Assembly (NCBI GenBank): GCA_002083825.1
Contig: DAZV01000039.1
Coordinates: 9,733-73,732, forward strand
Source: Candidatus Sericytochromatia bacterium S15B-MN24 CBMW_12
GTDB taxonomy: Bacteria > Cyanobacteriota > Sericytochromatia > S15B-MN24 > UBA4093
Length of the DNA stretch: 64,000 nt
Direction: 5' to 3'
The first letter of the stretch is position 1. Every line of letters begins with the position of its first letter. The notes below the pieces were generated by a model. The model was not told the DNA's origin, did not search any database, and saw only the letters and a program-made list of their open reading frames with translations. Made by a program: the position numbers and the translations under genes. This document shows, in pieces, positions 864 through 55,273 of the stretch.

Positions 864-936
864 CTCTAGCGGCTGTTTCGTAGCGCCAGCGGCTTTTGAT
901 TAAGGCAGCGAGAGAACGCAGTCGAGCTTTGCTCTA
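864..936. repeat. intergenic repeat family, short form copy A (56-bp core 881-936 plus partial head duplication 864-880)
   Basis: Core 'tagcgccagcggcttttgattaaggcagcgagagaacgcagtcgagctttgctcta' differs at 2 of 56 positions from copy B at 22045-22100. Its terminal CTA (934-936) is the TAG stop of the minus-strand S8 protease gene. Confidence 0.85.
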
Positions 937-2406
937 AGGATACGAGGCGGGGAAGTTCGTCGTCAGGGCTTTTCGGACGTTGATGCGGCCCCAGCCGTAG
1001 AGGGGGTCTTTGCCAGGGGCCCCGAGATCGTCGGCGGTGGCCTGGAGGTGTTGCTTCACGGCATCATGATAAGCGGCAAGCTGGCTTGCTGTTGCGCCAT
1101 CGGGGGGCCGGTGCTTGGCGACCAGGAGGGCTGCCGTCCCCGAGACGTAGGGGCAGGCCATGGACGTGCCGCTGATGGTCGCATATCCCACGGGCTGGGG
1201 CTGGTTGTCATAGCCGAAGGTCGCGTAGGAGGGGAAGGTCGAGATGATCTGGCCGCCGGGCGCGGCGAGGTCGATTCGCGCGCCCCGGTTGGAGAAGCCG
1301 GAGAGCCATTCCCAGATCTGGTTGCCGATCCGGTAGTGGCTGGTCGACGAGACGGCGATCGCATGGGCGGAGTTGGCGGGAGCAGCGACCTCGGAGCCCT
1401 CGTTTCCGGCGGCCACCACCACGACGACGCCCATGGTCCGGGCCGTCGCGAATGCGGCGTCGTAGGCGGGGTGGCGCCCGTGATAGGGATAGCCTAGGCT
1501 CATGCTGATGACACCGACGCGGCGATCGTCGACACCCTCGGTCGCTAGGTAGGATTGGCGGGACCCCGCCCCGTCGACGTCCTGCCCGAGGGCATAGGCG
1601 AGCCCCTGAAGGATCTGAAAGTCAGAGCCCCCGTTCGCCCCGAGGACCTTGACCGGCATGAGGCCGACGTTCCAGGAGACTCCCGCGACGCCTTGGCCGT
1701 TGTTGCCGCGCGCCCCGATAATCCCCGCCACGTGCGTTCCATGCGCGCTCAGGTCCTTGACGTCTTTTTCCACGGGAAGGTCAGCCGAAGGGTTCTCGTT
1801 CGTGATGAAGTTCTGGGGAGCGAAGACCCGGCTCTGGCCCAGGTCGTCCTGGAACTCGGGATGGTCGACGTCGAGCCCCGTGTCGAGGATGGCGACCAGG
1901 ACCTTGCTCGCATCGACGGCGGGAGTATCGCTGAGCCAGAGCGCGCGGGCCTCGGTCTGCCGGTGCGACCACTGCGCGTCGAAGTGCGAATCCGTGGGAT
2001 CGGGTCTTGCCTCGGAAGCGCGGTGGATCCGGTTCAACTCGATTCCTGCGACTCCGGGGCGGCTGGCGAGAATCTGATGCGCCTCGGCCAGCGACATGCC
2101 TTCGGGCGCCTGGATGGCCACGAAGCGCTGGTTGAATCGAACTTCGCCGAGCTTGGCGAAGCCCTCGACGATCCTGCTCACGTCAGCGTTTTCGCTGAGC
2201 TGCACGAGCAGCTGATTGGCGACGAAGCTTCCTGCTGGGACCGCCTGGCCACGGCTTAATTCAGGGGGCAGAGCGTCTGCTTTCGCGCCGAGGCCATCGA
2301 CGACGTCGATGCCGAAGGGGCTTCCGCTAGGCGGCGGCAATTGCTGGCAGCCGATGATCAGGCTGAAAGCCAGGAGGCCGAGAAGCCGTTGATTGAAGAA
2401 TCTCAT
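934..2406 (-). CDS. S8 subtilisin-like serine protease, predicted lipoprotein
   Basis: Asp/His/Ser triad motifs are present: 'VAILDTGLDVDHPEF', 'HGTHVAGIIGA', 'GTSMACPYVSG'. The start is trimmed to ATG at 2406 (MRFFNQRLLGLLAFSLIIGCQQ, lipobox) with an AGGAGG RBS upstream. The upstream 74 codons of the tracked ORF are Arg/Pro-rich and non-protein-like. Confidence 0.85.
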   Translation of the reverse strand: MRFFNQRLLGLLAFSLIIGCQQLPPPSGSPFGIDVVDGLGAKADALPPELSRGQAVPAGSFVANQLLVQLSENADVSRIVEGFAKLGEVRFNQRFVAIQAPEGMSLAEAHQILASRPGVAGIELNRIHRASEARPDPTDSHFDAQWSHRQTEARALWLSDTPAVDASKVLVAILDTGLDVDHPEFQDDLGQSRVFAPQNFITNENPSADLPVEKDVKDLSAHGTHVAGIIGARGNNGQGVAGVSWNVGLMPVKVLGANGGSDFQILQGLAYALGQDVDGAGSRQSYLATEGVDDRRVGVISMSLGYPYHGRHPAYDAAFATARTMGVVVVVAAGNEGSEVAAPANSAHAIAVSSTSHYRIGNQIWEWLSGFSNRGARIDLAAPGGQIISTFPSYATFGYDNQPQPVGYATISGTSMACPYVSGTAALLVAKHRPPDGATASQLAAYHDAVKQHLQATADDLGAPGKDPLYGWGRINVRKALTTNFPASYP

Positions 2407-15178: not shown

Positions 15179-15442
15179 CTAGGCTTGCGACGATCTTGCC
15201 AGGATCGACTTCTCGACGAAGTCTACCAGGGCCTCGACGGTGGCCACCTGGCGCATCTGGTCGTCCTCGATGAAGAGGTCGAACTCATTCTCGAGGGCCA
15301 CGGTGATCTCGGCGATGTTGATGGACTCGGCGCCCAGGTCCCGCACGATGTGTGCGTCCGGGCGAAGGGTGGTCGAGTCTTCGATCATGAGCACGTCGGC
15401 CAGGATGGCGACGATCTGGGTTTGTAACGCGGTGCGATCCAT
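15179..15442 (-). CDS. acyl carrier protein (free-standing)
   Basis: 87 aa, acidic. The phosphopantetheine-site motif 'DLGAESINIAEI' has Glu-Ser in place of the usual Asp-Ser. Start trimmed to MDRTALQ with an AGGAGG RBS. It is the last gene of the lipid operon. Confidence 0.8.
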   Translation of the reverse strand: MDRTALQTQIVAILADVLMIEDSTTLRPDAHIVRDLGAESINIAEITVALENEFDLFIEDDQMRQVATVEALVDFVEKSILARSSQA

Positions 15443-15453
15443 GGGGCAGCCTC

Positions 15454-16887
15454 CTAGAAAGACCATAAAGGGGAGCGACGGGGGGGACGAATCCGGGCGG
15501 GGGCCGCCTGCAAGGCCTCGAGGGATGTGATGAGCTCCCGCCGGGTATGCCGGGGATCGATGACCGCGTCGACGATCCCGGCTCGCTGGGCGGCATAGGC
15601 GTCCGACGGGACGCGTCGAAGACCCTCCAGGGCCTCCTTGCGGAAGGCGTCGGGGGCCTCATGAGTCAGGAATTCCTTGCCATGCAGGATGGCGAAGCTG
15701 GCCTCGGCGCCCGCGATGCCGATCTGGGCCGTTGGGTAGGCGAGGACCCTATCCCCTCCTGCTTGCTTGGCCTGCAGCATGACGAAGGCACCTCCGAAGC
15801 ACTTCCGAACGATCAAGGCGATACGGGGCACGTCCGTGTCGACGGCATGAAACAGGACTCCTCCGGCCGATAGGATGGCGGCCTGCTCTTGCTCGACGCT
15901 CACCATGATGCCCGGTACGTCGACCAGGTAGAAGAGCGGCAAGCCATGGGCGTCGCAAAGCCGCACGAAGCGGCTGGCCTTACGGATGGCCTCCACGTCG
16001 AGGGCGCCGCCGCGCACCTTGGACTGGTTGGCGACGAGGCCCACGGGGTGACCGTCGAGTCGGGCGACGCCTACGACGATCGGCTCGCCCCAGGAGCGGT
16101 GGACCTCCATGAACGATCCCCCGTCGAAGATGGCCTCGATCAGGCCCCGGACGTCGTAGGGGACAAAGGGGCTCTTGGGGACGACGGCTTCGATTTCCGC
16201 GCCGGAGGGTGGCACGGGCTCGCGACGGTCCCTTGACAGGTAGCCGAGCATGGAGCGCAGCTCGGCGATGCAGGAGGCGTCGTCATCGGCCAGGAAGTGC
16301 GCGACCCCGCTCTTGGCAGCATGCATGGAGGCCCCGCCGAGCTCGTTGAGGTTCACTCGCTGCCCGGTCGCGACCCTGATGACCGAAGGACTGGTGGTGA
16401 AGGTGTAGCTCTCGCCGGGAATCATCCAGACCAGATCCGCGAGGGCCGCGATGTAGGCGGGGACCCCTGAACAGAGCCCCATGCAGGCCGTGAGCTGGGG
16501 TGCCACCCCGGAGTGCCGCGTGAGGGACAGGAACAGCTCGGCATTCCCCCCCAGAGAGCCATAGCCCTCGGAGACCCGGGCGCCGTTAGACTGCAAGAGG
16601 GCCACCACCGGCAGCCGTTTTCGGGACGCGCGCTCCAGCAACGTGATGATGCTGCGGGTCTCGGCGATTCCTAGCGTGCCTTCCTCGACCAGGTAGTTGC
16701 TCGCATAGGCCAGCGCCGGGCGCCCTTCCACGGTACCTTCGGCCGTCACGACGGCCTGCTTCCATGCCTCGTCCCAGTTCGGGGCGTTCAACAATGCCAG
16801 GGATCCCTCGTCGAACAGGGCCTTCAGACGATCCTCGAACGAGAGCTGTCCCAGTCGCTTCAGTTTGGTCAGATAGCGTGCTTTCAA
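15454..16887 (-). CDS. acyl-CoA carboxylase carboxyltransferase (AccD/PccB beta-subunit family)
   Basis: 477 aa with a two-lobed carboxyl-transferase layout ('VVALLQSNGARVSEG...', 'GGASMHAAKSGVAHF', 'VGLVANQSKVRGGALDVEA', 'KCFGGAFVM'). TTG start 7 nt after AGGAGG. Confidence 0.85.
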   Translation of the reverse strand: MKARYLTKLKRLGQLSFEDRLKALFDEGSLALLNAPNWDEAWKQAVVTAEGTVEGRPALAYASNYLVEEGTLGIAETRSIITLLERASRKRLPVVALLQSNGARVSEGYGSLGGNAELFLSLTRHSGVAPQLTACMGLCSGVPAYIAALADLVWMIPGESYTFTTSPSVIRVATGQRVNLNELGGASMHAAKSGVAHFLADDDASCIAELRSMLGYLSRDRREPVPPSGAEIEAVVPKSPFVPYDVRGLIEAIFDGGSFMEVHRSWGEPIVVGVARLDGHPVGLVANQSKVRGGALDVEAIRKASRFVRLCDAHGLPLFYLVDVPGIMVSVEQEQAAILSAGGVLFHAVDTDVPRIALIVRKCFGGAFVMLQAKQAGGDRVLAYPTAQIGIAGAEASFAILHGKEFLTHEAPDAFRKEALEGLRRVPSDAYAAQRAGIVDAVIDPRHTRRELITSLEALQAAPARIRPPRRSPLWSF

Positions 16888-16898
16888 GTCGCGTCCTC

Positions 16899-17912
16899 CT
16901 ACAGCACGAGCGCGACGGCACCGGCCGTGTAGCCGCCGCCGGCCGCCGTGAGCACCAGGCGATCGCCCTTCTTGATTCGACCGGCATCCGAGGCCAGCTT
17001 CAGAGACAGGGGGATGGTGGCGCTCGAGCAGTTCCCCGTGCGCTGGATGAACTCGGCGCAGCGATCGGGGGGAACGCCGAGTTCATCCCGGATGGCCCGG
17101 ATCATTCCCAGGTTCGCCTGATGGGGAACGAGGTAGTCCACGTCATCCAGGCGCCAGCCGGCCATCTCCATGACCTCCCGGGCACAACGCACCATCGTCT
17201 CGGTCGCCCGCTCGAAGATCTCGCGGCCGTCCTTCATTTCCATGTACTGCCGCCCCGAGGCCAGGCGTTCCGGGGTCAAGGGGAGCCTGGAGCCGCCACC
17301 GGGAATGGTCACGTTGCGCGTCCCCGCCCCATCGGCATAGAGGACCATGGCCTGGAGGCCTTCGGTGCGCGATGGCTCGCGGGAGACGAGCAAGGCGCCC
17401 CCCGCGGCGTCGCCGTAGATGGGCAGGATGCGCCCCTCCCGGGGGTTGATCTGGCGCGAGCGGATCTCGCTCGCGAGCACCAGCACCCGATCCTCGCCGG
17501 TCATGAGCGCCCGGCTCGCGGCTTCGATGGCGTAGAGAAAGCCCGAACATGCGGCCGAGACGTCGTAGGCGGGGTACGTGCAGCCCGGCTCCAGGCGATC
17601 CTGGACGGCGCAGGCCGTCGAGGGCATGATCCAGTCTCCCGAGGTGGTGGACACGATCAGGCGATCGAGTTCATGGGCACGGATGCCCGCCCGATTCAGG
17701 ATCCGGCTGGCCGCCTCGAAGGCCAGGTCGGAGGCGGCCTGGTCCGCGGCGGCCCAGCGGCGCTCCTCGACGCCGATTCGCCCGCGGATCCAGGACTCGG
17801 TGACGGGCAGGCCGAACTCCGCTATCAGATCCCGGTTGGTGACGACGCGCGCAGGCCAGTAGGCGTCGAGCGCCGCCAGTCCGACGCGCCCTTCAACGTT
17901 CAGCCTGGCCAT
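16899..17912 (-). CDS. 3-oxoacyl-ACP synthase III (KASIII/FabH-like), paralogue 1
   Basis: Cys/His/Asn triad contexts 'DVSAACSGFLYA', 'LVPHQANLGMI', 'GNCSSATIP'. Start trimmed to MARLNVEG with a GGGAGG RBS. It overlaps the SDR gene end. Confidence 0.85.
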   Translation of the reverse strand: MARLNVEGRVGLAALDAYWPARVVTNRDLIAEFGLPVTESWIRGRIGVEERRWAAADQAASDLAFEAASRILNRAGIRAHELDRLIVSTTSGDWIMPSTACAVQDRLEPGCTYPAYDVSAACSGFLYAIEAASRALMTGEDRVLVLASEIRSRQINPREGRILPIYGDAAGGALLVSREPSRTEGLQAMVLYADGAGTRNVTIPGGGSRLPLTPERLASGRQYMEMKDGREIFERATETMVRCAREVMEMAGWRLDDVDYLVPHQANLGMIRAIRDELGVPPDRCAEFIQRTGNCSSATIPLSLKLASDAGRIKKGDRLVLTAAGGGYTAGAVALVL

Positions 17913-18672
17913 CGGCCGCCTCCCGGATGTACATGGCCGACAGAGGGTTGCCGAGATGCAGCCCGCCATCCACCCGTAGCGTCTCTCCGGTGATGAAGGA
18001 GGCCTGGGGTGAAGCCAAGAAAGCGACGGCGTTGGCCACGTCCATGGGATCTCCCAGCCGTCGAACGGCCGAGGCCAGGGCGAATCGTCGAGCCTTGGCC
18101 TTCCCGAAGAGTTCCAGGCGTTCGGTGAGAACGGGACCCGGCTGGATGATGTTGGCCGTCAGACCATGGGGCGAGTAGTCGATCGCGAGGTTCCGGATCA
18201 GGCCTTCCATGGCGGCCTTCGAGGCGCAGTAGGCGGGCCCGTAGGCCTCTCCCAGGGAGGCTGCGAGCGAGCTGATGGCGATGATCCGGCCCCATCGCCG
18301 CTCCAGCATGCCCGGGATCACCGCCGCGCTGAGACTGGCCGCGGCGAAGAAGTTCACTTCCATGACCCGGCGCAGCGTTTCCATGCCCCCCTTCAGGAAG
18401 GGCGCCAGTTCGGGGGGATGGGCGGCGTTGTGGACCAGGATGTCGACATGGCCGATCTCGGCGAGAATGGACTCGACCGCGCCCTCGCAAGCGAGGTCCG
18501 CGACGAACGTGCGAACTCCGCCTCCGGACCGGGCCTCGAGCGCCGCGAGGCGATCACCTCGGCGTCCCACTCCGACCACGCGGGCCCCCGCCGTTTCGAG
18601 CGCCAGGGCGATCGCCGCTCCCATGTCGCTCGTGGCCCCGGTGACGAGCGCTACCTTCCCGTTCAGGTTCAT
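17893..18672 (-). CDS. SDR-family oxidoreductase (3-oxoacyl reductase-like)
   Basis: 'GKVALVTGATSDMGAAIA' Rossmann motif and the 'YCASKAA' YxxxK motif. The ATG at 18672 forms an ATGA overlap with the upstream stop. Confidence 0.85.
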   Translation of the reverse strand: MNLNGKVALVTGATSDMGAAIALALETAGARVVGVGRRGDRLAALEARSGGGVRTFVADLACEGAVESILAEIGHVDILVHNAAHPPELAPFLKGGMETLRRVMEVNFFAAASLSAAVIPGMLERRWGRIIAISSLAASLGEAYGPAYCASKAAMEGLIRNLAIDYSPHGLTANIIQPGPVLTERLELFGKAKARRFALASAVRRLGDPMDVANAVAFLASPQASFITGETLRVDGGLHLGNPLSAMYIREAADGQAER

Positions 18673-19721
18673 GTCCATCCCTTCCACAAGGCGGAGCCCC
18701 AGCGCATGCCGCCTCCCAGCGCGCTGAGCGCGCACCAGCCCTCGGGCCGCTCGTGCCTTACCTCATGCAGGGCCATCAACAGGGAGGCCGCGCCCGTATT
18801 GCCGTACCGCTCGATCGTCGTGACCATGCGCAGATCCGGCCTTCCGAGCGAGCGATGAACGTCCTGCAGGATGGGCAACGAAACCTGGTGCGGGATCCAG
18901 AGTGCCAGCTCATCCATGCCGACCTGTGTCCTGGCGACCAGCTCCTGCAAGCCGTCTCGGTAGCGCGCGACGACCAGGTCGCGGGTCTGAGTCGGAGCCC
19001 CCCGGTAGTAGAAGGCGCCCGAGTCGATGTCCGCCTGACGGGGGGGCATGGAGCCGAAAACCCCCGCGTGATCCCATGTGGAGTACTCGCCGCCGAGCAG
19101 GCACGCGAAGTTCGGCTCCGGGGCCGCCTCGAGAACGAGCGCCCCCGCGCCGTCGCCCACGTTCAGGAAGCCGGAGAGAGCCTGGGCGTCCACGTATTTG
19201 CTCATGGTGTCCGAACCGACCACCAGCACGCGGCGGTAACCGTTCGCCAGGCTCATGGCTGCCCACTGCAGGGAGTACACGCTGCCCGCGCACCCGGCCT
19301 TGAGATCGAAGCTGGGGCCCATGTAACCCAGGCGCGCACAAAGGGGGCTCGCCGAGGGCAGCGTGGCCATGGGGGAGGTGTTGAGGGCGAGGATCACCAG
19401 ATCGAGATCGGAAGCTTGAAGTCCGGCATCCCTCAGGGCGGCCGAGGCCGCCTCGGTGGCCAGGTCGATGGCCGTCGCCTCGTCCTCGCGCGCCTCGGAG
19501 CCGACCCAGTGGCTCCAGTGGCGGCGCTGCCCCCCGCTGGCCGCGATCATTCGCTGCATGGCCTGCTGCTTGCGCAGGGAGAGTTCCCCGTACCCGAGGA
19601 CGCCGAGCATGTCCGCGTTGGTGACGACGTCTTTGGGGCCGTCGGGCGTGGGGCAGCTCGGCACGGCGATTCCCGAGCCCCGGACGCGCATGGATCCTCG
19701 GATGAGTGGCAACTCAGGCAT
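18669..19721 (-). CDS. KASIII-like condensing enzyme, divergent paralogue 2
   Basis: Thiolase-fold triad contexts 'DLKAGCAGSVYSL', 'WIPHQVSLPIL', 'YGNTGAASLL'. The N-terminal region is longer and more divergent than FabH. It overlaps the FAAL gene end by 8 nt. Confidence 0.8.
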   Translation of the reverse strand: MPELPLIRGSMRVRGSGIAVPSCPTPDGPKDVVTNADMLGVLGYGELSLRKQQAMQRMIAASGGQRRHWSHWVGSEAREDEATAIDLATEAASAALRDAGLQASDLDLVILALNTSPMATLPSASPLCARLGYMGPSFDLKAGCAGSVYSLQWAAMSLANGYRRVLVVGSDTMSKYVDAQALSGFLNVGDGAGALVLEAAPEPNFACLLGGEYSTWDHAGVFGSMPPRQADIDSGAFYYRGAPTQTRDLVVARYRDGLQELVARTQVGMDELALWIPHQVSLPILQDVHRSLGRPDLRMVTTIERYGNTGAASLLMALHEVRHERPEGWCALSALGGGMRWGSALWKGWT

Positions 19722-21372
19722 CCTGCAGAGGCCTACGTGACTCGATGTGGCGTTGACGGGCCTCGGAGCGTCTCACCTTGCCACTGGTGGTCTTGGGAAG
19801 GGACCGTGGCGGCAGGAGGATCACCTCGTCCACCCGCAGGCCGACATGCTCCATGACCCGCGTCCGGATGGCCCGGTGCAGCGCTTCTCGCTCGACGGCC
19901 ACCTGGAGGCGGGTCTCGACGTGCATCACGAGGTGTTCCGGCGCCCCGAACTCCTGGGAGTAGGAGAAGGCGATCGCTCCGCCGTTGCGGACCTCCGGCA
20001 GCGCCTCGGCGATCGCCTCGATGTCCTGGGGGTGGTATTTGCAGCCTCCCCTGATGATCAGGTCCTTGACGCGGCCCGTCACGTAGAGGCGCCCGGCGGA
20101 CAGGTAGCCCAGGTCCCCCGTGCGCAGGAATCCGCCCTGCAGGGCCTCTTGGCTCGCGGCGGCGTCTCCGAAGTAGCCGTCCATGATCGAGGGGGACTGC
20201 GCCCAAATCTCCCCGATTTCCCGCTCGGGGAGGTCCGCGCCACCTTGGTCGCGGATGGCGAGGGTGACGCCCGGCATGGGGGGCCCCACGCAGACGATCT
20301 CCTGGGCTGCTGCGTCCGGGTTCCCGGCAAGGACGGCCGACCGGTGCTCCTCGTAGGCCGCCCGCGTCAGGCGCTCGACCTGCATGCCTGCGCCGGGGCG
20401 GGTCATGGCGACCCCGAGCGTCGCCTCCGCGAGCCCGTAGGCGGCGACGAAGGCCCCAGGATCGAAGCCATGCGGCTGCATTCGCTCGGCAAAGGCCCTC
20501 AGCGTCGCTGGGCGGATGGGCTCGGCGCCCACCATTGCCGCGCGCCAGCGCGATAGGTCGAGTCCCGACAGGTGCGAGTCCGACAGGCGGGTGCAAAGCT
20601 GATAGGCGAAGTTGGGCGCCACCGAGATGGTGGCCCCGTAGTCGGAGAGGGCCCGCAACCAGCGAATGGGATGCTGGATGAAGTGCTGAGGGGGCATCAA
20701 GACCAGATGGCAGCCGACGACCTGGGAAAAGATCAGCTTGCCGATCAGGCCCAGGTCATGGTGCAAGGGGAGCCAGGAGACGAGCACGTCCTGGGGACCG
20801 GCCTCCAGCACGTCCCTGATGGCCCACGTGTTCGCCAGGAGCTGGGTCCAGCCCAGAGCGGCCCCCTTGGGGTGGCCGGTGCTGCCCGAGGAGAATTGGA
20901 TGATTCCGCCTCCGGGTCCTGCCGGCAGCCTGGCGTCACCGGTTGCTTGCGGCAGATCGTCGGGCGTCAGGATCAAGCACGGGGCGTCCGGCAGCAGGAG
21001 CCGGTTCTCGGGGGTGACGAGCGCGAGGCGTGGATCCGCCTTGACGAGCGTCCGGAGCAGCCGGAGCCTCTCGTGATCCTGTCCCGGCGTGGGCGGGGCC
21101 AGCGGGACCACCGTGGCGCCAAGCATCCAGGCCCCGAAAAGGGCTCCCAGGAAGTCCTCGCAGGTCGGCAGGACGAGGGCCAGTCGATCTCCCTCTCGCA
21201 GACCCGCTTGCTGCAGGCGCGCCGCCCATCCCATGGCGAGGGCGCTCAAATCGGCCCCCGTGTAGGACCTTGGGCCTGCGTCCTCGAACAAGGTCAGGCG
21301 AACGCGCCCGTGGTCCTTGATCCATTGTTCGTTGACCTGGATAATCAGAGAGTCTTGCGCCGTGAAAGCCAT
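19714..21372 (-). CDS. fatty acyl-AMP ligase (FAAL)-type adenylating enzyme
   Basis: Motifs 'IQFSSGSTGHPKGA', 'SWLPLHHDLGLIG', 'APNFAY', 'YGLAEATL', 'RTGDLGY', 'GRVKDLIIRGGCKYHPQDIE' match the FadD32/FAAL pattern as I remember it. Start is at MAFTAQDS (21372). The tracked 1027-aa ORF is an artefactual upstream extension. Confidence 0.85.
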   Translation of the reverse strand: MAFTAQDSLIIQVNEQWIKDHGRVRLTLFEDAGPRSYTGADLSALAMGWAARLQQAGLREGDRLALVLPTCEDFLGALFGAWMLGATVVPLAPPTPGQDHERLRLLRTLVKADPRLALVTPENRLLLPDAPCLILTPDDLPQATGDARLPAGPGGGIIQFSSGSTGHPKGAALGWTQLLANTWAIRDVLEAGPQDVLVSWLPLHHDLGLIGKLIFSQVVGCHLVLMPPQHFIQHPIRWLRALSDYGATISVAPNFAYQLCTRLSDSHLSGLDLSRWRAAMVGAEPIRPATLRAFAERMQPHGFDPGAFVAAYGLAEATLGVAMTRPGAGMQVERLTRAAYEEHRSAVLAGNPDAAAQEIVCVGPPMPGVTLAIRDQGGADLPEREIGEIWAQSPSIMDGYFGDAAASQEALQGGFLRTGDLGYLSAGRLYVTGRVKDLIIRGGCKYHPQDIEAIAEALPEVRNGGAIAFSYSQEFGAPEHLVMHVETRLQVAVEREALHRAIRTRVMEHVGLRVDEVILLPPRSLPKTTSGKVRRSEARQRHIESRRPLQDA

Positions 21373-21486
21373 GCGATCGCCGTTTCGTAACGAAGTGGGG
21401 AGTCTTGTTCGGCTATACCCAAGCCCGTACGAAAGAGCACCTAACGGGCAATACCTCGTGTCGGCCTCAACCTGAAGGGATACCTC

Positions 21487-22047
21487 ATGACGGATTGGAT
21501 CACCCTCGTCGCCATCATCGGCAGCACCCTGCTGCATTTCATCCTGGAAGGACGGATCAAGGCCAATCCCACGGCCGCGGATCGCGTCTTCGACCTCAAG
21601 AGCGCGCGGCTCTGGAACCTGATCACCCTGTCCTGCATGGCCTTGCCGCTCATCGAGATGGCGATCCTGGGCCCCGTGACGCCTTGGCCGCGCGGGGCCA
21701 TGCTGGGACTGCCCCTCATGACGCTCGGCATGGGGCTGCGCTACCAGGCGATCCTCCAGCTCGGGGCGTACTTCACCTATCCCATCTGCCTGCGCCCGGA
21801 GCATCGGCTGGTCCAGGAGGGTCTCTACCGCCGCTGGCGCCACCCTAGCTACTTCGCCAACTTCCTCATCCTGACGGGTGCCTGGACCATGCTGCAGAGC
21901 CGCTGGTTGCCTTTCGGAATCCTCGCCTACGCCGCCATGACCTGGTACCGCATCCGGCGCGAGGAGAAGGTGCTGCTGGAGCATTTCGGGGAGGATTACG
22001 CCCGCTATCAGGCGAGCAGCAAGGCGCTGATACCCTTCGTCCTTTAG
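21487..22047 (+). CDS. isoprenylcysteine carboxyl methyltransferase (ICMT/PEMT)-family membrane methyltransferase
   Basis: Five hydrophobic helices. Family motif 'GLYRRWRHPSYFANFLIL' and C-terminal 'REEKVLLEHFGEDYARYQ'. It is divergent from the FAAL gene. Confidence 0.8.
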   Translation: MTDWITLVAIIGSTLLHFILEGRIKANPTAADRVFDLKSARLWNLITLSCMALPLIEMAILGPVTPWPRGAMLGLPLMTLGMGLRYQAILQLGAYFTYPICLRPEHRLVQEGLYRRWRHPSYFANFLILTGAWTMLQSRWLPFGILAYAAMTWYRIRREEKVLLEHFGEDYARYQASSKALIPFVL

Positions 22048-22100
22048 CGCCAGCGGCTGTTGATTAAGGCAGCGAGAGAACGCCGTCGAGCTTTGCTCTA
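22045..22100. repeat. intergenic repeat family, short form copy B
   Basis: 'tagcgccagcggctgttgattaaggcagcgagagaacgccgtcgagctttgctcta'. Its first TAG is the stop of the ICMT gene and its last CTA is the TAG stop of the minus-strand acyltransferase gene. Confidence 0.85.
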
Positions 22101-22883
22101 AAGCGATCGCGCGAGGGGCCTGGCCGGATTCCCGCCCCAGCGCTCCTGCGCTGGGATGTGGGTGCCCTTCTCGACCACCGAGTTCCAGTCGAGCTCGCAG
22201 CCGTCGCCGAGGGTGCAGTTGGACTGGATCATGCAGTAGGGGCCGATCTTCACCCCCGAACCCACCCTGACGTTCGGGCTGAGCGCGGTGCGGGCCCCGA
22301 TGAGGCAGTCCTCTCCGATGGTCACCCCCGGACCGACCTCGGCGGCGCCGCCCAGGACGCTGCGGCTCCCGATCCGGATGCTCCCGAACAGGAGGGTGTG
22401 GCCCTCTCCGCCCAGGTGGGTGGCGAGGCTCGAGAGGGTTCCCAGCGTCACGTCGTCTCCTACCTCGACGAGGCAGGGCTCCAGGATCGTGACGTAGGGG
22501 GCGATGTTGGTTCGGCGGCCGAGCTTGGCTCCCATGAGCCCGAAGTAGAGGCGCTGGAAGGAGATGAAGGTGCTCAGGAAGGGCTTCAGCTCCCCGAGGG
22601 CGAAGCCGTGGAAGAGCGTGTAGAATCCCCAGCGCAGGAAGGTAGGGGATCCGGCCGGCGCTGGCCCCGGCGTCAGGCGTCCCACCAGGAGGCGCGAGAG
22701 CACGCCGCAAAGGATCAGGAACAGGAAGATGCCCAGGTACCCCAGGAAGGGCAAAACCCCGACGAGGCCCCAGACTCCCCCGCGTCCGAAGGCCCACTGC
22801 CCCACGAGAACCATGGGCCCGAAGGCAATGGGAGCCAAGAGGGCGACCAGGATCAGCCGCATGAGATCGTAGAGGATCAGCAT
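22098..22883 (-). CDS. membrane-anchored hexapeptide-repeat (left-handed beta-helix) acyltransferase
   Basis: The N-terminal ~110 aa have 3-4 TM helices. The C-terminal part shows imperfect hexapeptide periodicity ('VEVGDDVTLG', 'IRIGSRSVLGGAAEVGPGVTIGEDCLIGARTALSPNVRVGSGVKIG'). AGGAG RBS. Confidence 0.75.
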   Translation of the reverse strand: MLILYDLMRLILVALLAPIAFGPMVLVGQWAFGRGGVWGLVGVLPFLGYLGIFLFLILCGVLSRLLVGRLTPGPAPAGSPTFLRWGFYTLFHGFALGELKPFLSTFISFQRLYFGLMGAKLGRRTNIAPYVTILEPCLVEVGDDVTLGTLSSLATHLGGEGHTLLFGSIRIGSRSVLGGAAEVGPGVTIGEDCLIGARTALSPNVRVGSGVKIGPYCMIQSNCTLGDGCELDWNSVVEKGTHIPAQERWGGNPARPLARSL

Positions 22884-22890
22884 AAGGCTC

Positions 22891-24126
22891 CTAGTAGCTC
22901 ACGTGCTCGATCTTGCGCCGTTCGACGACGCGGATCCGGTCGGGGGCGTCCATCTCGTAGGTGACGCCCCGCCAGGTGATGCGGTTGGTCGGGATGGAGG
23001 CGACCACGTTGACGAGCCCCAGAAGGCTGGTGAGTGGCATGGCGAGGAGGTAAGCGAGGGGCAGCTTGCGGTAGTGCTCCGCGTTCTCCGGCACCGCGTC
23101 GCGCAAGGCCCCGAGCATGATGGCGCCCATCAGCCAGGTCAGGGGGGCATGGGTCAGAAGCAGGAATATGGCGGGGTCGAGCTGTCCCCGGAAGAGCCCC
23201 ATCGTCAGCAACACGAGGCTCATGAGCAGGAAGAAGTTGGGCAAGCCGTAGGAGATGAAGGCCGTTCCCCACATGCGACCGAGGTAGACCTTGGCGATTG
23301 CCATCTGGCGGTTGGTCCATTCCAGCAGGCCGGGCATGGTCGCGTTCTCGAAGGTGCCCACCACGCAGTGGGGGACGAAGCAGATTCCCAGGCCCGCCTC
23401 CTTGACCGAGGCGGCGACGAGGGGACCGTCACAGAGGGCTTGCTCCCATCGCCGGGCAATCTCCAGGCGCTCGAAATTGTGACGAAGGATGGCCATGGAA
23501 CCGGCCCAGGTGCCGTTCAGCTTGTCGTTCGCGAGCACCGCCGTGGACATCATGCTCCAGGAGGAGCGCAACAAGGAGGCGAGGTTGCCGTCGGTCGGGA
23601 AGATCATGCGGTAGCCGGTGCTCGCACCGAACTGCGGATCCCCGAGGGGACGAACCAGGTCCCTCAGCCAGGAGGCATGGGGTCGGATATCCGAATCGAT
23701 GAAGACCAGGGCCTGCGAGTCGGGATCCGCATGGCGCAGCCCGACCAGGTGGTTGTGGTTCTTCTCGCTGCACAAGGAGCCGTGACCCGACACGACGATC
23801 CGGGCGCGAACGCCCGGATGGGCCGCGATCGCTTCTCGGATGACCGGCAGGCAGGGATCCGTCTCGTCGGCCACCACGCAGAGCAGTTCCCAGTCCGGAT
23901 ACTCCTGGCCGAAGATGGCTGCCAGGTTCTCCTTTAGCCCGGGGTCGAGGCCCTTGCAGGGCAAAAGGATGCTGCAGCGAGGCGAGAAGTCGGGGAAATT
24001 CCGGCTCGGGAAGTCCCGGACATACTGCCTGAACCGCATGGCCAGCGCCACCGGGACCAGGTTGAAGGCCAGGGCCAAGAGGCCCACTGAGAGGGTTCCG
24101 GCCGAAAAGCCGCTGAACGTGATCAT
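22891..24126 (-). CDS. glycosyltransferase family 2 (GT21 ceramide-glucosyltransferase / HpnI-like)
   Basis: N-terminal TM helix, then 'CSILLPCKGLDPGL', 'ALVFIDSDIRP' (DxD-type), followed by C-terminal TM helices. The ATG at 24126 forms an ATGA overlap with the MMPL stop. Confidence 0.8.
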   Translation of the reverse strand: MITFSGFSAGTLSVGLLALAFNLVPVALAMRFRQYVRDFPSRNFPDFSPRCSILLPCKGLDPGLKENLAAIFGQEYPDWELLCVVADETDPCLPVIREAIAAHPGVRARIVVSGHGSLCSEKNHNHLVGLRHADPDSQALVFIDSDIRPHASWLRDLVRPLGDPQFGASTGYRMIFPTDGNLASLLRSSWSMMSTAVLANDKLNGTWAGSMAILRHNFERLEIARRWEQALCDGPLVAASVKEAGLGICFVPHCVVGTFENATMPGLLEWTNRQMAIAKVYLGRMWGTAFISYGLPNFFLLMSLVLLTMGLFRGQLDPAIFLLLTHAPLTWLMGAIMLGALRDAVPENAEHYRKLPLAYLLAMPLTSLLGLVNVVASIPTNRITWRGVTYEMDAPDRIRVVERRKIEHVSY

Positions 24127-26309
24127 GAGGGGATCCTGCCGTTTCTGAAGTGTGGCCCGCGAGGCCACCAGTAGTTCCAGCGACCCATCAGGGCCATCAT
24201 GGAGGGAACCAATACCAGACGAATGAGCGTTGCGTCAACCAGGATCGCCACCGAGAGGCCGAGGCCTATCTCCTTGAGGGTCCGGATTTCCATGGCCAGG
24301 TAGGGCAGAAAGACGCTGAGCATCACCAACGCGGCCCCGAGCACGACGCCGCTCGAGCGCTGCAGGCCGTCGGCGATCGCCTCGAGGGGCGGCATCCCCT
24401 CGTCATGGGCTTCTCGGATGCGCGCCAGAATGAAGAGCTCGTAGTCCAGGCTGATCGCATAGAGCACCGAGAAGAGGATCAGAGGCGTGAGGCTCTGGAC
24501 GTAGCCATTGCCGTAGGTGCCGAGGAACTGCGCTCCGAACCCGTACTGGAACACGGCGACCACCGCCCCGAAGCCGGCCAGCACCGGTAGCAGGTTGGTC
24601 AGGATGGCCTTGATCGGAAGGATGGCCGAACGCAGGAACCGCGCGAGCAGGAAGTAGGAGCCGAAGAGGTTGATGCCCAGGACCCATGGCAGGGCCTTCT
24701 GGAGGGCTCTCTGGGAGTCCTCTTGCTCGGCGAGCATTCCTCCCAGGTAGGGCCTGGCTTCAGGGATCGGATTCTCCCCCAGCGTGCGCGCCAGGTCCGA
24801 GAGCAGTCCGGCCCCCTCGGGACTGTCCGGCGCAAGGCGTGTCGTGACGCGCATGAGGGTGATGCGTCCGTCCGGACTCAAGGGTGAGGAAGGCAGCACC
24901 AGGCCCGCGAGGGACGACTTCAGGAGGTGGGAGAGTGCCGCCGGACTCAGGCCGCGATCGCTCGCGAGGCTTTCGACCCGGGCAACCCGCGGATCGGCGG
25001 CGATGGCCGCTTCGACCCTGCGCAGGCCCGCGAGGAAGGCTTCCTCCTTGGCTCCGTCCGGGCGATCGCACTGCCAGGTGACGAGGATCGGGCTCACGAG
25101 GCCGCCCTCCCCACGGGAGAGCAGCCACTCGAAACCGCGGTAGCTCTCGAGCCCATGAGGCAAGAGGGAGATGAAGGGAGACCAGGTCCTGGCGTGAGCG
25201 ATGGGGAGGATGAGTAGCCCCAAGAGCAGGGACGAGAACAGCAAGGAGCGCCGCGGCCTCTGGACGATGGCGCGGCTGAGCCTCCCCCAGGTACGCGCGG
25301 CGGGGCGGTCCTTGATCCGCAGGAGCGAGGCCAGGGGGAAATAGCGTCCGAGCAGGAAGAGCGCGCTCGGGATCAGCGTGAGCGTGAGGGCCGCCGCGAT
25401 CGGTCCCGTCAAGGCGACCGTCAGTCCGATGGACCGGACCTCCGGGACGGCGACGACCAGGAGCGAGAGCCCCCCAAGCGCGATGACGAGGCTCGAGAGG
25501 CCCACGGTCCTCCCGGCGGTAGCCAGCGTTCTCGCCAGGGCGCCCTCGGGGTTCTTGGCATGTTCTTCTTTCAGGCGCGAGAGGAGGATCAAGGGGTAAT
25601 CGATCCCCAGGGCCATGGCCAGGATGGCGACCATGATCTGGTTGAGGCTGGAGACGGGTAGCCAAGGGAGCAGGAGCGCCATGACGAGGTTGCCCGCAAG
25701 CAGGGTCGATAGGCCCGAGAGCAGGGACAGCGCGGCCATGAGGATGCCCCGGAAGGTGAGGACGAGCACGATCATGGAGATCAGGAGGGACACCTTCTCG
25801 ACCCGGGCGAGGTCGTCGCTGAGCTGCTGGAAGGCGTCGTAGGCGGCCGCCCCCGGCCCCGTGAGGGCCGCCTCGACGCCGGGCGGCAGCGTCACTTGGC
25901 GGATGGCCCCGCGCAGTGCGGGGATCATGCGGGCCGGCGGGATCCCGCGCTCGGTGATCACGAGGAGGGGGGTGGCGCCCTGAACGCCGCGCACGCCGGG
26001 GACCGCGCGGAGGGCGCGCTCGAGGTCGGGTTCGACCTGCCGGGCGACTTCGGGATCACCGCTCAGGACGAGGAGGTGGTGCGAGCCGTCCAGGGCGGGG
26101 AGGGCCCGGGACAGGTGAAGGCGGGCCATGGCCGAGTCGGAGTTGGGAGGGGGGGCTTGTTCTTGGACCAGGCGCGTCGCGAGGTGCGGAGCCAGCCAGG
26201 CCCCCAGGGCAAGGACGATTGCCCAGCCGAGCACCCAGAGGAGCGGCCAGCGCTGGACCCGGGGGCCAATTCGGGTCGAGAGGTCGGATGGTGTCGTGGA
26301 TCGTCCCAA
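24123..26309 (-). CDS. MMPL/RND-superfamily lipid exporter
   Basis: Two blocks of ~6 TM helices separated by soluble loops, typical of MMPL proteins. The proposed TTG start at 26309 lies 9 nt after GGGAGG. The upstream 88 codons of the tracked ORF have no Met and overlap the divergent promoter region, so the start is uncertain. Confidence 0.8.
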   Translation of the reverse strand: MGRSTTPSDLSTRIGPRVQRWPLLWVLGWAIVLALGAWLAPHLATRLVQEQAPPPNSDSAMARLHLSRALPALDGSHHLLVLSGDPEVARQVEPDLERALRAVPGVRGVQGATPLLVITERGIPPARMIPALRGAIRQVTLPPGVEAALTGPGAAAYDAFQQLSDDLARVEKVSLLISMIVLVLTFRGILMAALSLLSGLSTLLAGNLVMALLLPWLPVSSLNQIMVAILAMALGIDYPLILLSRLKEEHAKNPEGALARTLATAGRTVGLSSLVIALGGLSLLVVAVPEVRSIGLTVALTGPIAAALTLTLIPSALFLLGRYFPLASLLRIKDRPAARTWGRLSRAIVQRPRRSLLFSSLLLGLLILPIAHARTWSPFISLLPHGLESYRGFEWLLSRGEGGLVSPILVTWQCDRPDGAKEEAFLAGLRRVEAAIAADPRVARVESLASDRGLSPAALSHLLKSSLAGLVLPSSPLSPDGRITLMRVTTRLAPDSPEGAGLLSDLARTLGENPIPEARPYLGGMLAEQEDSQRALQKALPWVLGINLFGSYFLLARFLRSAILPIKAILTNLLPVLAGFGAVVAVFQYGFGAQFLGTYGNGYVQSLTPLILFSVLYAISLDYELFILARIREAHDEGMPPLEAIADGLQRSSGVVLGAALVMLSVFLPYLAMEIRTLKEIGLGLSVAILVDATLIRLVLVPSMMALMGRWNYWWPRGPHFRNGRIPS

Positions 26310-26595
26310 GCCCCCGAGCCTCCCTAAAAAGCAAGCACAATGGAATTCCTGGCGGGATGAGAGCCCTGTACCCCGGGTCGGTTCAAGGCTAACGGCCGCG
26401 TCTGCTTCAAGGAGGGCCTGCGCGCCTGGGGCCCCGATCAACGGGTTTTTTTTCACTTGCCGTTCGGGAGGGGGGCTGGCGCGTCGGGACGAGATCGCGG
26501 CCGGCTGGAGAATTTGCTCTCCAGCCGGTTGATCGGTATCGGAGCATTGGCGTGGTATGCTTTGGGGGTTCACATCACGTCACGGGAGGTGGGCC

Positions 26596-28284
<1,689 letters not shown>

Positions 28285-37895: not shown

Positions 37896-38194
37896 GGGAT
37901 CCTCCTCTCGCGAGTTCCTTTCAAGATGCCAGGGGTTGCGGTGGAATCCCAGGTCCAGGGCAGACGAGGAGGTTTGTGGGGCGGGGGGTTTCGAGCGGGT
38001 GAAGCTAGCTCGTCGCTTTTGTCGGGGGAGGGTCTTTGTTAAGATGGGTCCGCCGGAGGAAAGCTTCCGGAGCGGGTGCTGCGGATGTCCGTGCGTGGGT
38101 CGGTCAGGTTGTGGGCGTTTCGCTATCCCGTGGCATTCAACGGCACCGAGCGGCCTCGAAGGGCAACGAGCGGCGTCACGAAAAAGGAGGGACT

Positions 38195-38557
38195 ATGGGC
38201 ACCCGAGTCATTCCCACCGATCAGTGGTTGGGTTACCTCAACAGCATCAGCACGATCAAGCGTAAAGCCGACGTTCGGGTGGAGATCCTGAGCGAGGAGT
38301 TCGGGGACCAGGTCATCACGGAGCGGGCTCCCCTTTTGGCCCTGATGAGCGAGCAGAAGGGTTCGGAGGCTTGTGCGGTGGACATCGAGATCGGCAACCA
38401 GAACGTGAACAATGCCGATCGCTTGACGCACTCGGTGATTTGCACCTCCAAGCTTCAGGTGGAGGAGGACGCGTCGGGGGATCCGCGGGCGATCGCGCTC
38501 ATCGGGGAGGACCCGCAGACCCATGCGAAGGTGACTACCATCGTTCGTTTTCTCTAG
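38195..38557 (+). CDS. small hypothetical protein (DUF5335-like by recollection)
   Basis: ATG at 38195 is preceded by AAAAAGGAGGG. 120 aa, 'IPTDQWLGYLNSIS...VRVEIL' and ending 'TTIVRFL'. Its TAG stop is the first triplet of the long-form repeat. Confidence 0.7.
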   Translation: MGTRVIPTDQWLGYLNSISTIKRKADVRVEILSEEFGDQVITERAPLLALMSEQKGSEACAVDIEIGNQNVNNADRLTHSVICTSKLQVEEDASGDPRAIALIGEDPQTHAKVTTIVRFL

Positions 38558-38760
38558 CGCCAGCGGCTGTTGATTAGGACCGCGAGAGAACGCCGTGAGG
38601 CAGGGAGCATGGGGCGTATTTCCATCTCTCGCTGTCCTGAAGAAACGAGCTTGGCTCTAGCGCCAGCGGCAGTTTCGTAAGGCAGCGAGAGAACGCCGTG
38701 AGGCAGGGATCATGGGGCGTGTGTCCATCTCTCGCTGTCCTGAAGAAACGAGCTTGGCTC
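38555..38760. repeat. intergenic repeat family, long form, two tandem 103-bp copies
   Basis: Copies at 38555-38657 and 38658-38760 share the head 'tagcgccagcggc...gcgagagaacgccgt' and tail 'gagcttggctc' with the short form. They also carry a ~47-bp internal insert that creates a 10-bp stem (cagcgagaga / tctctcgctg). Confidence 0.85.
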
Positions 38761-38858
38761 CAGCAGTCCCGAGGCCGGTGGGCCGATGGGGGAGGATCGG
38801 CCCGCAGGTGGGCGGGGGGTAATGGGGTAAGGTTAGCGATGGGTTTGGGAGCGAATTC

Positions 38859-38868
38859 ATGCTAGAAT
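38859..38868 (+). promoter_or_regulatory. extended -10 (TGcTAGAAT) 6 nt upstream of ATG: leaderless-type promoter candidate
   Basis: TGcTAGAAT at 38860-38868 and ATG at 38875, with no Shine-Dalgarno in between. Confidence 0.4.
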
Positions 38869-38874
38869 CTCCGC

Positions 38875-55218: not shown

Positions 55219-55273
55219 TGATGCCGGGGTGATACCGGGGTGATACCGGGGTGATACCGGGGTGATATGGAGG
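55219..55273. repeat. five tandem 11-bp direct repeats (tgatRccgggg)
   Basis: tgatgccgggg, then tgataccgggg three times, then tgatatggagg. The last unit runs into the GGAGG RBS of the kinase gene at 55284. Confidence 0.9.

What the first reader, a model, noticed from the sequence alone, without database searches (positions are those of the whole stretch)
22045..22100. 56-bp repeat that exactly bridges the stop codons of convergent genes (second copy at 881-936)
The same 56-bp sequence (54 of 56 identical) occurs at 881-936 and at 22045-22100. In copy B the first triplet TAG is the stop codon of the plus-strand ICMT gene, and the last triplet CTA is the TAG stop of the minus-strand acyltransferase gene. 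In copy A the terminal CTA is the stop of the S8 protease gene, and the plus-strand permease stops 8 nt before a partial extra head copy (864-880). The long-form copy at 38555 also starts with the TAG stop of the preceding gene. The element therefore either targets TAG/CTAG sites at gene ends or has remodelled four gene C-termini by providing new stops. I see no strong hairpin and only weak terminal inverted repeats, so it is neither a classic REP nor a classic MITE.
Basis: seen in the sequence. Interest (0 to 1): 0.65.

Follow-up and report, generated by a model that had tools for sequence, protein, structure and literature searches.

The report
Small TA-inserting transposon landing in stop codons
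The 56-bp repeat is a copy of a small non-coding mobile element (a MITE) that inserts at TA dinucleotides and duplicates them; it landed in the TA of existing stop codons without changing the proteins, so it is a tidy but ordinary kind of bacterial repeat.

Summary
The repeats at 881-936 and 22045-22100 match at 54 of 56 positions, and each end coincides with a stop codon. A tandem pair of a 101-nt long form lies at 38557-38760.

A close relative (ICMT 93% identical) has the empty site ...CCTT-TA-AAGCG..., where the two convergent genes overlap at TTAA. The window has ...CCTT-TA-[52 nt]-TA-AAGCG... This is a 52-nt insert with a 2-bp TA target-site duplication. Both stops changed from TAA to TAG, and no protein length changed because of the insert.

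The long form has imperfect terminal inverted repeats of about 36 nt and folds end to end (-47 kcal/mol). The short form is a mobile derivative with a 49-nt internal deletion.

I found five loci in 84 kb of this genome. Four start or end on the TA of a pre-existing stop codon. The rebuilt targets are C/T-TA-A/G. Because the element begins with G and ends with C, it regenerates TAG on both strands.

All affected proteins keep their native C-termini. Related groundwater metagenomes hold many copies, and their homology to the element starts exactly at (C)TA.

Verdict: a new family of a known kind, a TA-duplicating MITE, probably mobilised by an IS630/Tc1-mariner-type transposase. That transposase was not found. 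Interest is modest.

The parts
867..868 (.). Locus A, left TA. With C866 it forms CTA, which was the pre-insertion TAG stop of the S8 gene on the minus strand.
   Evidence: Sequence. Native spacer TAGGCCGC is conserved in L109. The reconstruction is my inference.
869..880 (+). Extra, partly deleted head unit (GCGGCTGTTTCG) of the long-copy-2 subtype.
   Evidence: Compare with the head of 38660-38677. Analogous head-unit repeats occur at L112 11744-11823.
881..882 (.). TA between the extra head unit and short copy A.
883..934 (+). Short-form element, copy A (52 nt).
935..936 (.). Right TA duplication of locus A. With C934 it is the present TAG stop of the S8 protease (minus strand, 934-936).
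22045..22046 (.). Left TA target-site duplication of copy B. TA plus the element's first G forms the TAG stop of ICMT.
   Evidence: Filled/empty-site alignment with L108.
22047..22098 (+). Short-form element, copy B (52 nt), absent from the close relative L108.
22099..22100 (.). Right TA duplication of copy B. The element's last C plus TA forms the TAG stop of the acyltransferase on the minus strand.
38555..38556 (.). Left TA of the long-form array. It is the TA of the DUF5335 gene's TAG stop.
38557..38657 (+). Long-form element, copy 1 (101 nt). It has imperfect terminal inverted repeats of about 36 nt and folds as an end-to-end hairpin.
38658..38659 (.). TA shared by the two tandem long copies.
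   Evidence: The same tail-TA-head junction is seen in run X4.
38660..38760 (+). Long-form element, copy 2 (101 nt), 90% identical to copy 1.
38761..38762 (.). CA, probably a mutated right TA duplication. Removing the array predicts the empty site TTCTC-TA-GCAGTCC.
   Evidence: Relatives L117 and L122 have only 76 and 62 nt between the two genes and no array.
21487..22047 (+). ICMT-family methyltransferase gene. Its stop was TAA in the relative and is TAG here.
22098..22883 (-). Hexapeptide-repeat acyltransferase gene, convergent with ICMT. The two overlapped by 4 nt (TTAA) before the insertion.
934..2406 (-). S8 serine protease gene (490 aa as called in the public record).
38195..38557 (+). 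DUF5335 gene (120 aa; the true start is at residue 54 of the ORF that begins at 38036).

Best explanation

Forms (shown):
- The full form is 101 nt, non-coding, with imperfect terminal inverted repeats of about 36 nt.
- The 52-nt form at 883-934 and 22047-22098 is a 49-nt internal-deletion derivative that itself spread to at least three unlinked sites.

Mechanism:
- Shown: the element integrates at a TA dinucleotide and duplicates it.
- Inferred: a DDE transposase supplied in trans does this, most likely of the IS630/Tc1-mariner family. An IS5-family transposase of the IS427 type is not excluded.
- Based on four or five sites: the rebuilt targets are pyrimidine-TA-purine.

Why it sits on stop codons (inferred):
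- In this 65% GC, tightly packed genome, TA is rare, and a third of the tolerable Y-TA-R sites are the TA of TAA/TAG stop codons.
- The element starts with G and ends with C. An insertion into a stop codon's TA therefore rebuilds TAG for the gene reading in from either side and is neutral.
- At copy B the target was the TA shared by two overlapping convergent TAA stops (TTAA). After duplication each gene got its own TA. That is why the 56-bp block 'exactly bridges' the two stops.

Consequence: the stop-codon association reflects target preference plus purifying selection, not remodelling of proteins. Extra 20-nt head units, tandem arrays sharing a single TA, and degenerate relics are secondary rearrangements.
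For: 1. Filled versus empty site. The relative L108 (ICMT 93% identical) reads ...GTCCTT-TA-AAGCG..., with the two genes overlapping by 4 nt. The window reads ...GTCCTT-TA-[52 nt]-TA-AAGCG....
2. Flanking TAs. TA flanks both ends of copy A, copy B and relic D, the left end and internal junction of the long array, and the right end of locus C. The long array's right end reads CA, one mutation from TA, and locus C's left end lacks the T.
3. Structure. The long form folds end to end at -47.2 kcal/mol, z = -3.6. Its arms align as terminal inverted repeats of about 36 nt.
4. Mobility of the short form. Copies A, B and C share the same deletion junction at three unlinked loci, so the short form moves as such.
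5. Dispersed, multicopy. There are five loci in 84 kb.
6. Copies in related metagenomes. In related groundwater metagenomes the 36-nt head reaches a word depth of about 1,700, against about 60 for single-copy flanks. It lies on 21 contigs with different flanks, and homology starts at the C or T of (C)TA.
7. Native C-termini.
8. Empty relatives at the array site. L117 and L122 go from the stop codon to a terminator hairpin within about 20 nt.
9. Site statistics. The window has 916 TA, 0.46 of expectation. Stop codons make up 12% of tolerable NTAN sites and 34% of tolerable YTAR sites. Four of five loci on stops gives p = 0.0009 under NTAN and about 0.05 under YTAR.
10. Known biology. IS630-family elements insert almost exclusively at TA and duplicate it (PMC2170065). 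Bacterial MITEs under 200 bp with terminal inverted repeats, terminal TA and target duplications are a known class, including two-size families that differ by a 50-bp internal segment (PMC2229807).
Against: - No transposase gene was found in the 84 kb examined, and no autonomous element with matching ends was found. The partner family is inferred only from the TA duplication.
- Only one locus (B) has a clean empty site in a close relative. No outgroup formally polarises insertion versus precise loss.
- The short form keeps only about 12-14 nt of the 3' arm and has weak inverted repeats, yet it appears to be mobile.
- The left end of locus C lacks the T of TA, and the right end of the array reads CA.
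- The stop-codon enrichment rests on five loci and on my crude ORF calls.
- Exact-pattern scans of the GTDB species genomes and the JGI metagenome contigs found no further copies. The family is therefore known only from this lineage and from Logan contigs that I could not read in full.
Confidence: 0.8

Rival explanations
1. The element is a REP/REPIN-type repeat. Two inverted REP units form a hairpin of about 100 nt, mobilised as single-stranded DNA by a RAYT (IS200/IS605-like tyrosine transposase). The 'TAG' would be part of a conserved GTAG-like recognition head rather than a target duplication.
For: - The long form is a hairpin of about 100 nt made of two inverted arms.
- The copies are extragenic, GC-rich and often lie between convergent genes, as reported for REPs (PMC3184786).
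- Copy A is preceded by G, which gives GTAG.
Against: - The empty site shows that the TA pre-exists in the target and is duplicated. RAYT/IS200-type insertion makes no duplication (established knowledge).
- The base before TAG varies (G, T or C), so it is flank and not part of the element.
- The singleton short form is not a palindromic REP unit and does not fold (z = +0.6).
Confidence: 0.06
2. The mechanism is the same MITE mechanism, but the mobilising enzyme is not of the IS630/Tc1-mariner family. It could be an IS5-family transposase of the IS427 group, which is reported to make 2-4-bp duplications at YTAR-like sites, or another DDE transposase.
For: - The rebuilt targets are Y-TA-R, a preference that I recall is also typical of IS5-family elements.
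- The element ends with G(C/A)GCC.
- No partner was identified, so the family assignment is open.
Against: - A strict 2-bp TA duplication is the hallmark of IS630/Tc1-mariner (PMC2170065).
- At copy B a 4-bp duplication is excluded, because the insert is 52 + 2 nt and its flanks read TTAG...CTAA.
- IS630 itself is reported to prefer CTAG (my recollection; not verified here).
Confidence: 0.12
3. The repeat is a selected functional module, such as a terminator, RNA-stability element or small RNA. On this view it is placed at 3' ends because it serves the flanking genes, and its spread is secondary.
For: - It lies at the 3' ends of genes.
- The long form would make a very stable RNA hairpin on either strand (-47 and -41 kcal/mol).
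- At locus A it occupies the place where distant relatives have a GC-rich terminator hairpin.
Against: - The short form, which is the finding itself, has no structure beyond shuffled controls (z = +0.6).
- No hairpin followed by a T-tract was found in 38400-38950, the only stretch scanned. The long form itself has no U-tract, and the native terminator hairpin is still present downstream of the array.
- No Rfam family matched.
- Copy B is absent from a 93%-identical relative whose genes are intact.
- Locus C lies 38 nt upstream of a gene start, not at a 3' end.
Confidence: 0.05
4. The copies arose by local segmental duplication or gene conversion within this region rather than by transposition.
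Against: - Nothing beyond the element is shared between the loci.
- There are further copies outside the window.
- There are many copies with unrelated flanks in other metagenomes.
- The element boundaries are exact, with a TA duplication.
Confidence: 0.01

Closest known systems
RUP (repeat unit of pneumococcus), a 107-bp MITE thought to be mobilised by IS630-Spn1
   Same: It is about 100 nt and non-coding, with terminal inverted repeats. It inserts at TA, is multicopy and intergenic, and depends on a transposase supplied in trans (PMC2229807).
   Different: I made no sequence comparison. RUP's link to its IS rests on similarity of the inverted repeats, whereas no partner is known here. RUP is AT-rich and found in a Firmicute. 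This family is GC-rich, sits in a probable cyanobacterial-lineage MAG, and lies mostly on stop-codon TAs.
Correia / NEMIS / CREE elements of Neisseria
   Same: They have TA at the termini with target duplication, and long inverted repeats. There are two size classes (about 155 and about 107 bp) differing by an internal segment of about 50 bp (PMC2229807). That parallels the 101- and 52-nt forms here, which differ by 49 nt. Filled/empty-site comparisons define their ends in the same way.
   Different: The host is unrelated, and I did not compare the sequences. Correia elements carry IHF sites and promoter-forming ends. No such motifs were tested or seen here. The short form here lost most of one arm, which the 107-bp Correia form did not.
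ISY100 / IS630 / Tc1-mariner transposons
   Same: They insert almost exclusively into TA with a 2-bp TA duplication, and about 24-30 bp of each end suffices for transposition (PMC2170065). IS630-family elements occur in cyanobacteria, ISY100 of Synechocystis being one (PMC2170065).
   Different: Those are autonomous elements of about 950 bp or more that encode the transposase. The elements here encode nothing, and similarity of their ends to any IS630-family end was not tested.
REP / BIME / REPIN elements with RAYT transposases
   Same: They are extragenic, GC-rich and hairpin-forming, and often lie between convergent genes (PMC3184786).
   Different: REPs make no target duplication and carry a conserved head tetranucleotide. 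Here TA is duplicated target and the preceding base varies.

Membership tests
Bacterial MITE of the TA-duplicating (IS630/Tc1-mariner-mobilised) type | Small (under about 200-600 bp) and non-coding | tested here: met
   The units are 52 and 101 nt and cannot hold an ORF of meaningful length.
Bacterial MITE of the TA-duplicating (IS630/Tc1-mariner-mobilised) type | Terminal inverted repeats | tested here: met
   The long form has imperfect terminal inverted repeats of about 36 nt and an end-to-end hairpin of -47.2 kcal/mol, z = -3.6. The short form keeps only about 12-14 nt of the 3' arm, so its repeats are weak.
Bacterial MITE of the TA-duplicating (IS630/Tc1-mariner-mobilised) type | Insertion at TA with a 2-bp TA target-site duplication, shown by a filled/empty-site pair | tested here: met
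   L108 has the empty site CCTT-TA-AAGCG and the window has CCTT-TA-[52 nt]-TA-AAGCG. TA also flanks both ends of copy A and relic D, the array's left end and internal junction, and locus C's right end. The array's right end reads CA and locus C's left end lacks the T.
Bacterial MITE of the TA-duplicating (IS630/Tc1-mariner-mobilised) type | Multiple dispersed copies with unrelated flanks | tested here: met
   There are five loci in 84 kb of the genome. In run X2, 21 contigs carry the head, with a summed word depth of about 1,700 against about 60 for single-copy DNA.
Bacterial MITE of the TA-duplicating (IS630/Tc1-mariner-mobilised) type | A cognate autonomous IS whose ends match the MITE's inverted repeats | tested here: inconclusive
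   No transposase domain appears among the called genes of L009, L111 and L112. Pattern scans of public collections gave only chance hits. Some Logan contigs continue from the 36-nt head into other sequence for 0.5-1.8 kb, but they could not be read.
REP / REPIN (RAYT-mobilised) | A conserved head tetranucleotide (GTAG-like) belonging to the element, and no target duplication | tested here: not met
   The base before TAG is G, T or C in different copies. The TA pre-exists in the empty site and is duplicated.
REP / REPIN (RAYT-mobilised) | A RAYT gene in the genome, flanked by the repeats | not testable with these tools
   Only 84 kb of the genome could be read.
Intrinsic (Rho-independent) terminator | A GC-rich hairpin followed by a T-tract | tested here: not met
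   The scan of 38400-38950 found none. The short form does not fold better than shuffles.
Any curated RNA family (Rfam 15) | A match at the gathering threshold | tested here: not met
   Only two tRNAs matched in the window.
Correia/CREE | Sequence similarity to the Correia inverted repeat; Neisseria host | not tested
   No reference sequence was compared. The resemblance is in architecture only (PMC2229807).

The most novel reading that the evidence does not exclude
The family may be adapted to use stop codons as safe harbours. Its G...C termini would have been selected so that TA + G and C + TA rebuild TAG for genes reading in from either side. Its integration preference (T-Y-TA-R in four of four rebuilt sites) may go beyond plain TA. 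Together these would let it colonise even zero-spacer junctions, such as overlapping convergent stops (TTAA), which are closed to other mobile DNA. As a by-product it would convert TAA stops to TAG and pull overlapping genes apart.
Probability: 0.2. Interest if true: 0.5.

Novelty: new member of a known kind. Interest (0 to 1): 0.3.

Why it matters
- It explains a striking pattern, a repeat whose two ends are the stop codons of convergent genes, by one simple rule. The element duplicates TA and has G...C termini, so no protein remodelling is needed.
- It adds a previously undescribed MITE family in an uncultivated, probably cyanobacterial-lineage, groundwater bacterium.
- For annotation, such elements can be recognised and masked, and their TAG ends should not be read as evidence of truncated genes.
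- They also break short-read assemblies. The contig of one relative (L116) ends about 100 nt after the DUF5335 stop, which may be an example.
- If the stop-codon preference holds genome-wide, the family would be a clean natural example of how target choice and end sequence together make a transposon nearly harmless in a compact genome.

Tried and rejected
- Exact-pattern scan of the GTDB species genomes. It gave 8 single hits, and BLAST showed all of them to be chance matches of the two anchors only.
- The same kind of scan of JGI metagenome contigs. It gave 98 stretches, and none of those returned as loci extended beyond the anchors.
- Viral contigs. Three chance hits, with no BLAST extension.
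- Plasmid collection, distant blastn. No match.
- Rfam. Only tRNAs matched.
- RNA runs. None were available.
- Look-up of the 490-aa S8 product. It was not on record.
- L116, an 85%-identical relative, at the array site. It has TAGCGCGAAC... after the stop, but this is not significantly element-like (local score 8 against 7.8 +/- 1.4 for shuffles). I do not count it as either a filled or an empty site.
- Reading 860-866 (GCCGCTC) as element-derived. I considered this and rejected it, because TAGGCCGC is conserved after the permease stop in L109.
- A 4-bp (YTAR) duplication. I considered and rejected it, because the insert is 52 + 2 nt.
- A possible relic at L111 6984-7048. It is too weak to count (nhmmer E = 0.4).

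Full report
**Observation**

The 56-bp sequence at 22045-22100 recurs at 881-936 with 2 mismatches, and no shuffle of the window gave any match (sequences).

The ORF listings confirm every stop-codon statement:
- ICMT (21487-22047, +) ends with TAG at 22045-22047.
- The hexapeptide acyltransferase (22098-22883, -) ends with CTA at 22098-22100.
- The S8 protease (-) ends at 934-936.
- The ABC permease (26-859, +) ends at 857-859.
- The DUF5335 gene ends with TAG at 38555-38557, exactly where the long form starts.

Pfam supports the gene identities. Tandem Repeats Finder shows that the long form is a tandem pair with a 103-bp period at 38552-38764, 90% identical.

**Anatomy**

The short form is the long form minus 49 internal nucleotides (alignment):
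- Long: TA-GCGCCAGCGGCTGTTGATTAGGACCGCGAGAGAACGCCGT[GAGG...GAAGAAA]CGAGCTTGGCTC-TA.
- Short: the same without the bracketed part.

The long form folds end to end on either strand. The plus strand gives -47.2 kcal/mol with z = -3.6, and the minus strand gives -41.5 with z = -3.1. Its 5' arm aligns with the reverse complement of its 3' arm over about 36 nt. The short form has lost most of the 3' arm and folds no better than shuffles (z = +0.6).

**Source and relatives**

The window lies on NCBI contig DFYB01000042.1 (129,358 nt) of MAG GCA_002382535.1. It is also present in JGI metagenome 3300000052.

GC content is 64.7%. The cyanobacterial HIP1 octamer GCGATCGC occurs 27 times against 5.2 expected. 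The nearest named homologues come from cyanobacterial-lineage MAGs. The taxon is otherwise not established. Relatives occur in groundwater metagenomes.

**The decisive result: a filled/empty pair**

A Logan contig (L108) encodes an ICMT that is 93% identical and has the same gene order.
- In L108 the two convergent genes overlap by 4 nt...TTCGTCCTT-TA-AAGCGGCGCGAGG....
- The window reads ...TTCGTCCTT-TA-[GCGCC...TTTGCTC, 52 nt]-TA-AAGCGATCGCGCGAGG....

The difference is the 52-nt element plus one extra TA, which is a 2-bp TA target-site duplication.

Before insertion both genes ended in TAA, and the two stops shared their TA within TTAA. After insertion each gene owns one TA. The element's first G and last C complete TAG on each strand. 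ICMT is 186 aa in both genomes. The acyltransferase is 261 vs 260 aa because of an unrelated 3-bp indel nearby, which creates a HIP1 site in the window. I had predicted this empty-site sequence from the TA-duplication hypothesis before fetching the relative.

**Other loci**

- *Array at 38555-38762.* It reads TA, copy 1, a shared TA, copy 2, then CA, which is one mutation from TA. Removing it predicts TTCTC-TA-GCAGTCC, a CTAG target that is the stop of DUF5335. Of the 17 other DUF5335 homologues listed, fourteen are 120 aa, two are 121 aa and one is 115 aa, and all align over the full query, so the C-terminus is native. Relatives at 75-78% identity (L117, L122) have only 76 and 62 nt between this gene and the next. 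In them the stop is followed directly by a terminator hairpin, with no array. In the window the homologous hairpin lies downstream of the array.
- *Locus A.* The string TAGGCCGC after the permease stop is conserved in the distant relative L109, so 860-866 is native spacer. The inserted block is TA(867-868), GCGGCTGTTTCG, TA, the 52-nt copy A, and TA(935-936). Removing it gives TAG-GCCGCTC-TA-AGG. There CTA is already a TAG stop for S8 at the same codon. S8 ends ...FPASYP, within one residue of orthologues that end ...FPATLPE/Q. The permease is 277 aa, as in L109.
- *Two further loci outside the window.* Walking 10 kb beyond each end of the window revealed both.
  - Locus C (L112 11744-11861) has four tandem 20-nt head units followed by a short-form copy. 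It lies between co-directional genes, 117 nt after a stop and 38 nt before a start. It is the only locus not on a stop codon.
  - Locus D (L112 15630-15693) is a degenerate long-form relic that starts on the TAG stop of a thiolase gene and ends with TA.
- *Profile search.* An nhmmer profile of the six copies found nothing else in the 84 kb or in about 70 kb from relatives.

**Copies elsewhere**

Exact-pattern scans of the GTDB genomes, the JGI metagenome contigs and the viral contigs returned only chance matches.

Logan contigs of groundwater runs do carry the family:
- In run X2, 21 contigs align to the element's first 36 nt or so. Their summed word depth is about 1,700, against about 60 for the neighbouring single-copy DNA of the abundant relative.
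- In nearly all contigs homology begins at 38657 or 38658, that is, at the C or T of (C)TA, and the upstream sequences differ.
- Several contigs share only the head and then continue into other sequence for 0.5-1.8 kb. These may be sister subfamilies or the autonomous parent. I could not read them.
- Run X4 shows tail-TA-head tandem junctions and a short form whose deletion junction differs by 2 nt.

**Why stop codons?**

- TA is under-represented: 916 in 64 kb, which is 0.46 of expectation.
- With crude ORF calls, stop codons provide 12% of the TA sites outside coding sequence. They provide 34% of the Y-TA-R sites, 18 of 53.
- The rebuilt targets are CTAA (A), TTAA (B), CTAG (array) and CTAA (D), and all are preceded by T at position -2.
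- Four of five loci on stop-codon TAs gives p = 0.0009 under a plain-TA model and about 0.05 under a Y-TA-R model.
- Insertions elsewhere in the short intergenic regions would often hit promoters. In relatives the -10-like TAGAAT lies just upstream of the next gene.
- An insertion into a stop codon's TA is neutral, because the element supplies G and C to rebuild TAG.

I therefore attribute the association to target preference plus purifying selection. The relative weights of the two are not resolved with five loci.

**Comparison with known systems**

- IS630/Tc1-mariner elements insert almost exclusively at TA and duplicate it, and about 30 bp of each end suffices for transposition (PMC2170065).
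- Bacterial MITEs of about 100-200 bp with terminal inverted repeats, terminal TA and target duplications are a recognised class. It includes RUP, which is linked to IS630-Spn1, and the Correia elements, whose two sizes differ by a 50-bp internal segment (PMC2229807).
- This family meets every testable defining feature of that class. The cognate transposase remains unidentified.
- The REP/REPIN alternative fails on the target duplication and on the variable base before TAG.
- A terminator or RNA-gene reading fails for the short form.

**Verdict**

- 'Remodelled C-termini' and 'not a MITE' are not supported.
- This is a new family of a known kind.
- The neat feature is that it splits overlapping convergent stop codons and rebuilds both. 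That follows from the TA duplication plus the G...C ends.

Noticed in passing
window, 27 sites (e.g. 22103-22110, 38489-38496): The cyanobacterial HIP1 octamer GCGATCGC occurs 27 times against 5.2 expected. The site at 22103-22110 exists only because of a 3-bp (ATC) indel relative to the close relative L108.
   Followed up: partly
window, whole: By my crude ORF calls, TAG is the commonest stop codon (26 TAG, 18 TGA, 5 TAA) in a 64.7% GC genome, where TGA usually dominates. At copy B the element turned two TAA stops into TAG. That cannot explain the genome-wide bias.
   Followed up: no
L112 11744-11823 (about 600 nt beyond the window's right end) and window 869-880: The element's 20-nt head unit (TA + GCGCCGGCGGCTGTTGAT) is tandemly repeated four times before a short copy. 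At locus A there is one extra head unit, with a 6-nt deletion, and it is of the other (GTTTCG) subtype. The cause could be slippage, or nested insertion at the element's own internal TTAA/GTAA followed by deletion. This is unresolved.
   Followed up: partly
L109 11513-11645: In a distant relative, the last 35 nt of the permease gene (ATCGGCGGCCAGACAGCGGGAGCGGTCAAGGGATAG) are duplicated on both sides of an insert of about 60 nt that contains a hairpin. This looks like a different kind of insertion, one with a long target duplication.
   Followed up: no
L116 4222-4250: In an 85%-identical relative, the DUF5335 stop is followed by a 13-nt tandem (TAGCGCGAACCAC / TAGCGCGAACGCC) at the very site where the window has the long-form array. 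It is not significantly similar to the element. The contig ends about 100 nt after the stop, which may mark a repeat-induced assembly break.
   Followed up: partly
L111 6984-7048 (about 3 kb left of the window start): There may be a decayed relic (…GTCCTGACGAAAC…) directly after a TAG stop between convergent genes. The nhmmer E-value is only 0.4.
   Followed up: partly
window 55219-55267: An 11-nt tandem repeat, TGATACCGGGG, occurs 4.5 times at 97% identity, just upstream of the ORF starting at 55284.
   Followed up: no
window about 15200-26600: Copy B sits inside a lipid-type gene cluster: acyl carrier protein, carboxyltransferase, two KAS III genes, a short-chain dehydrogenase, an AMP-binding ligase, ICMT, the hexapeptide acyltransferase, a GT2 glycosyltransferase and an MMPL transporter.
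   Followed up: no
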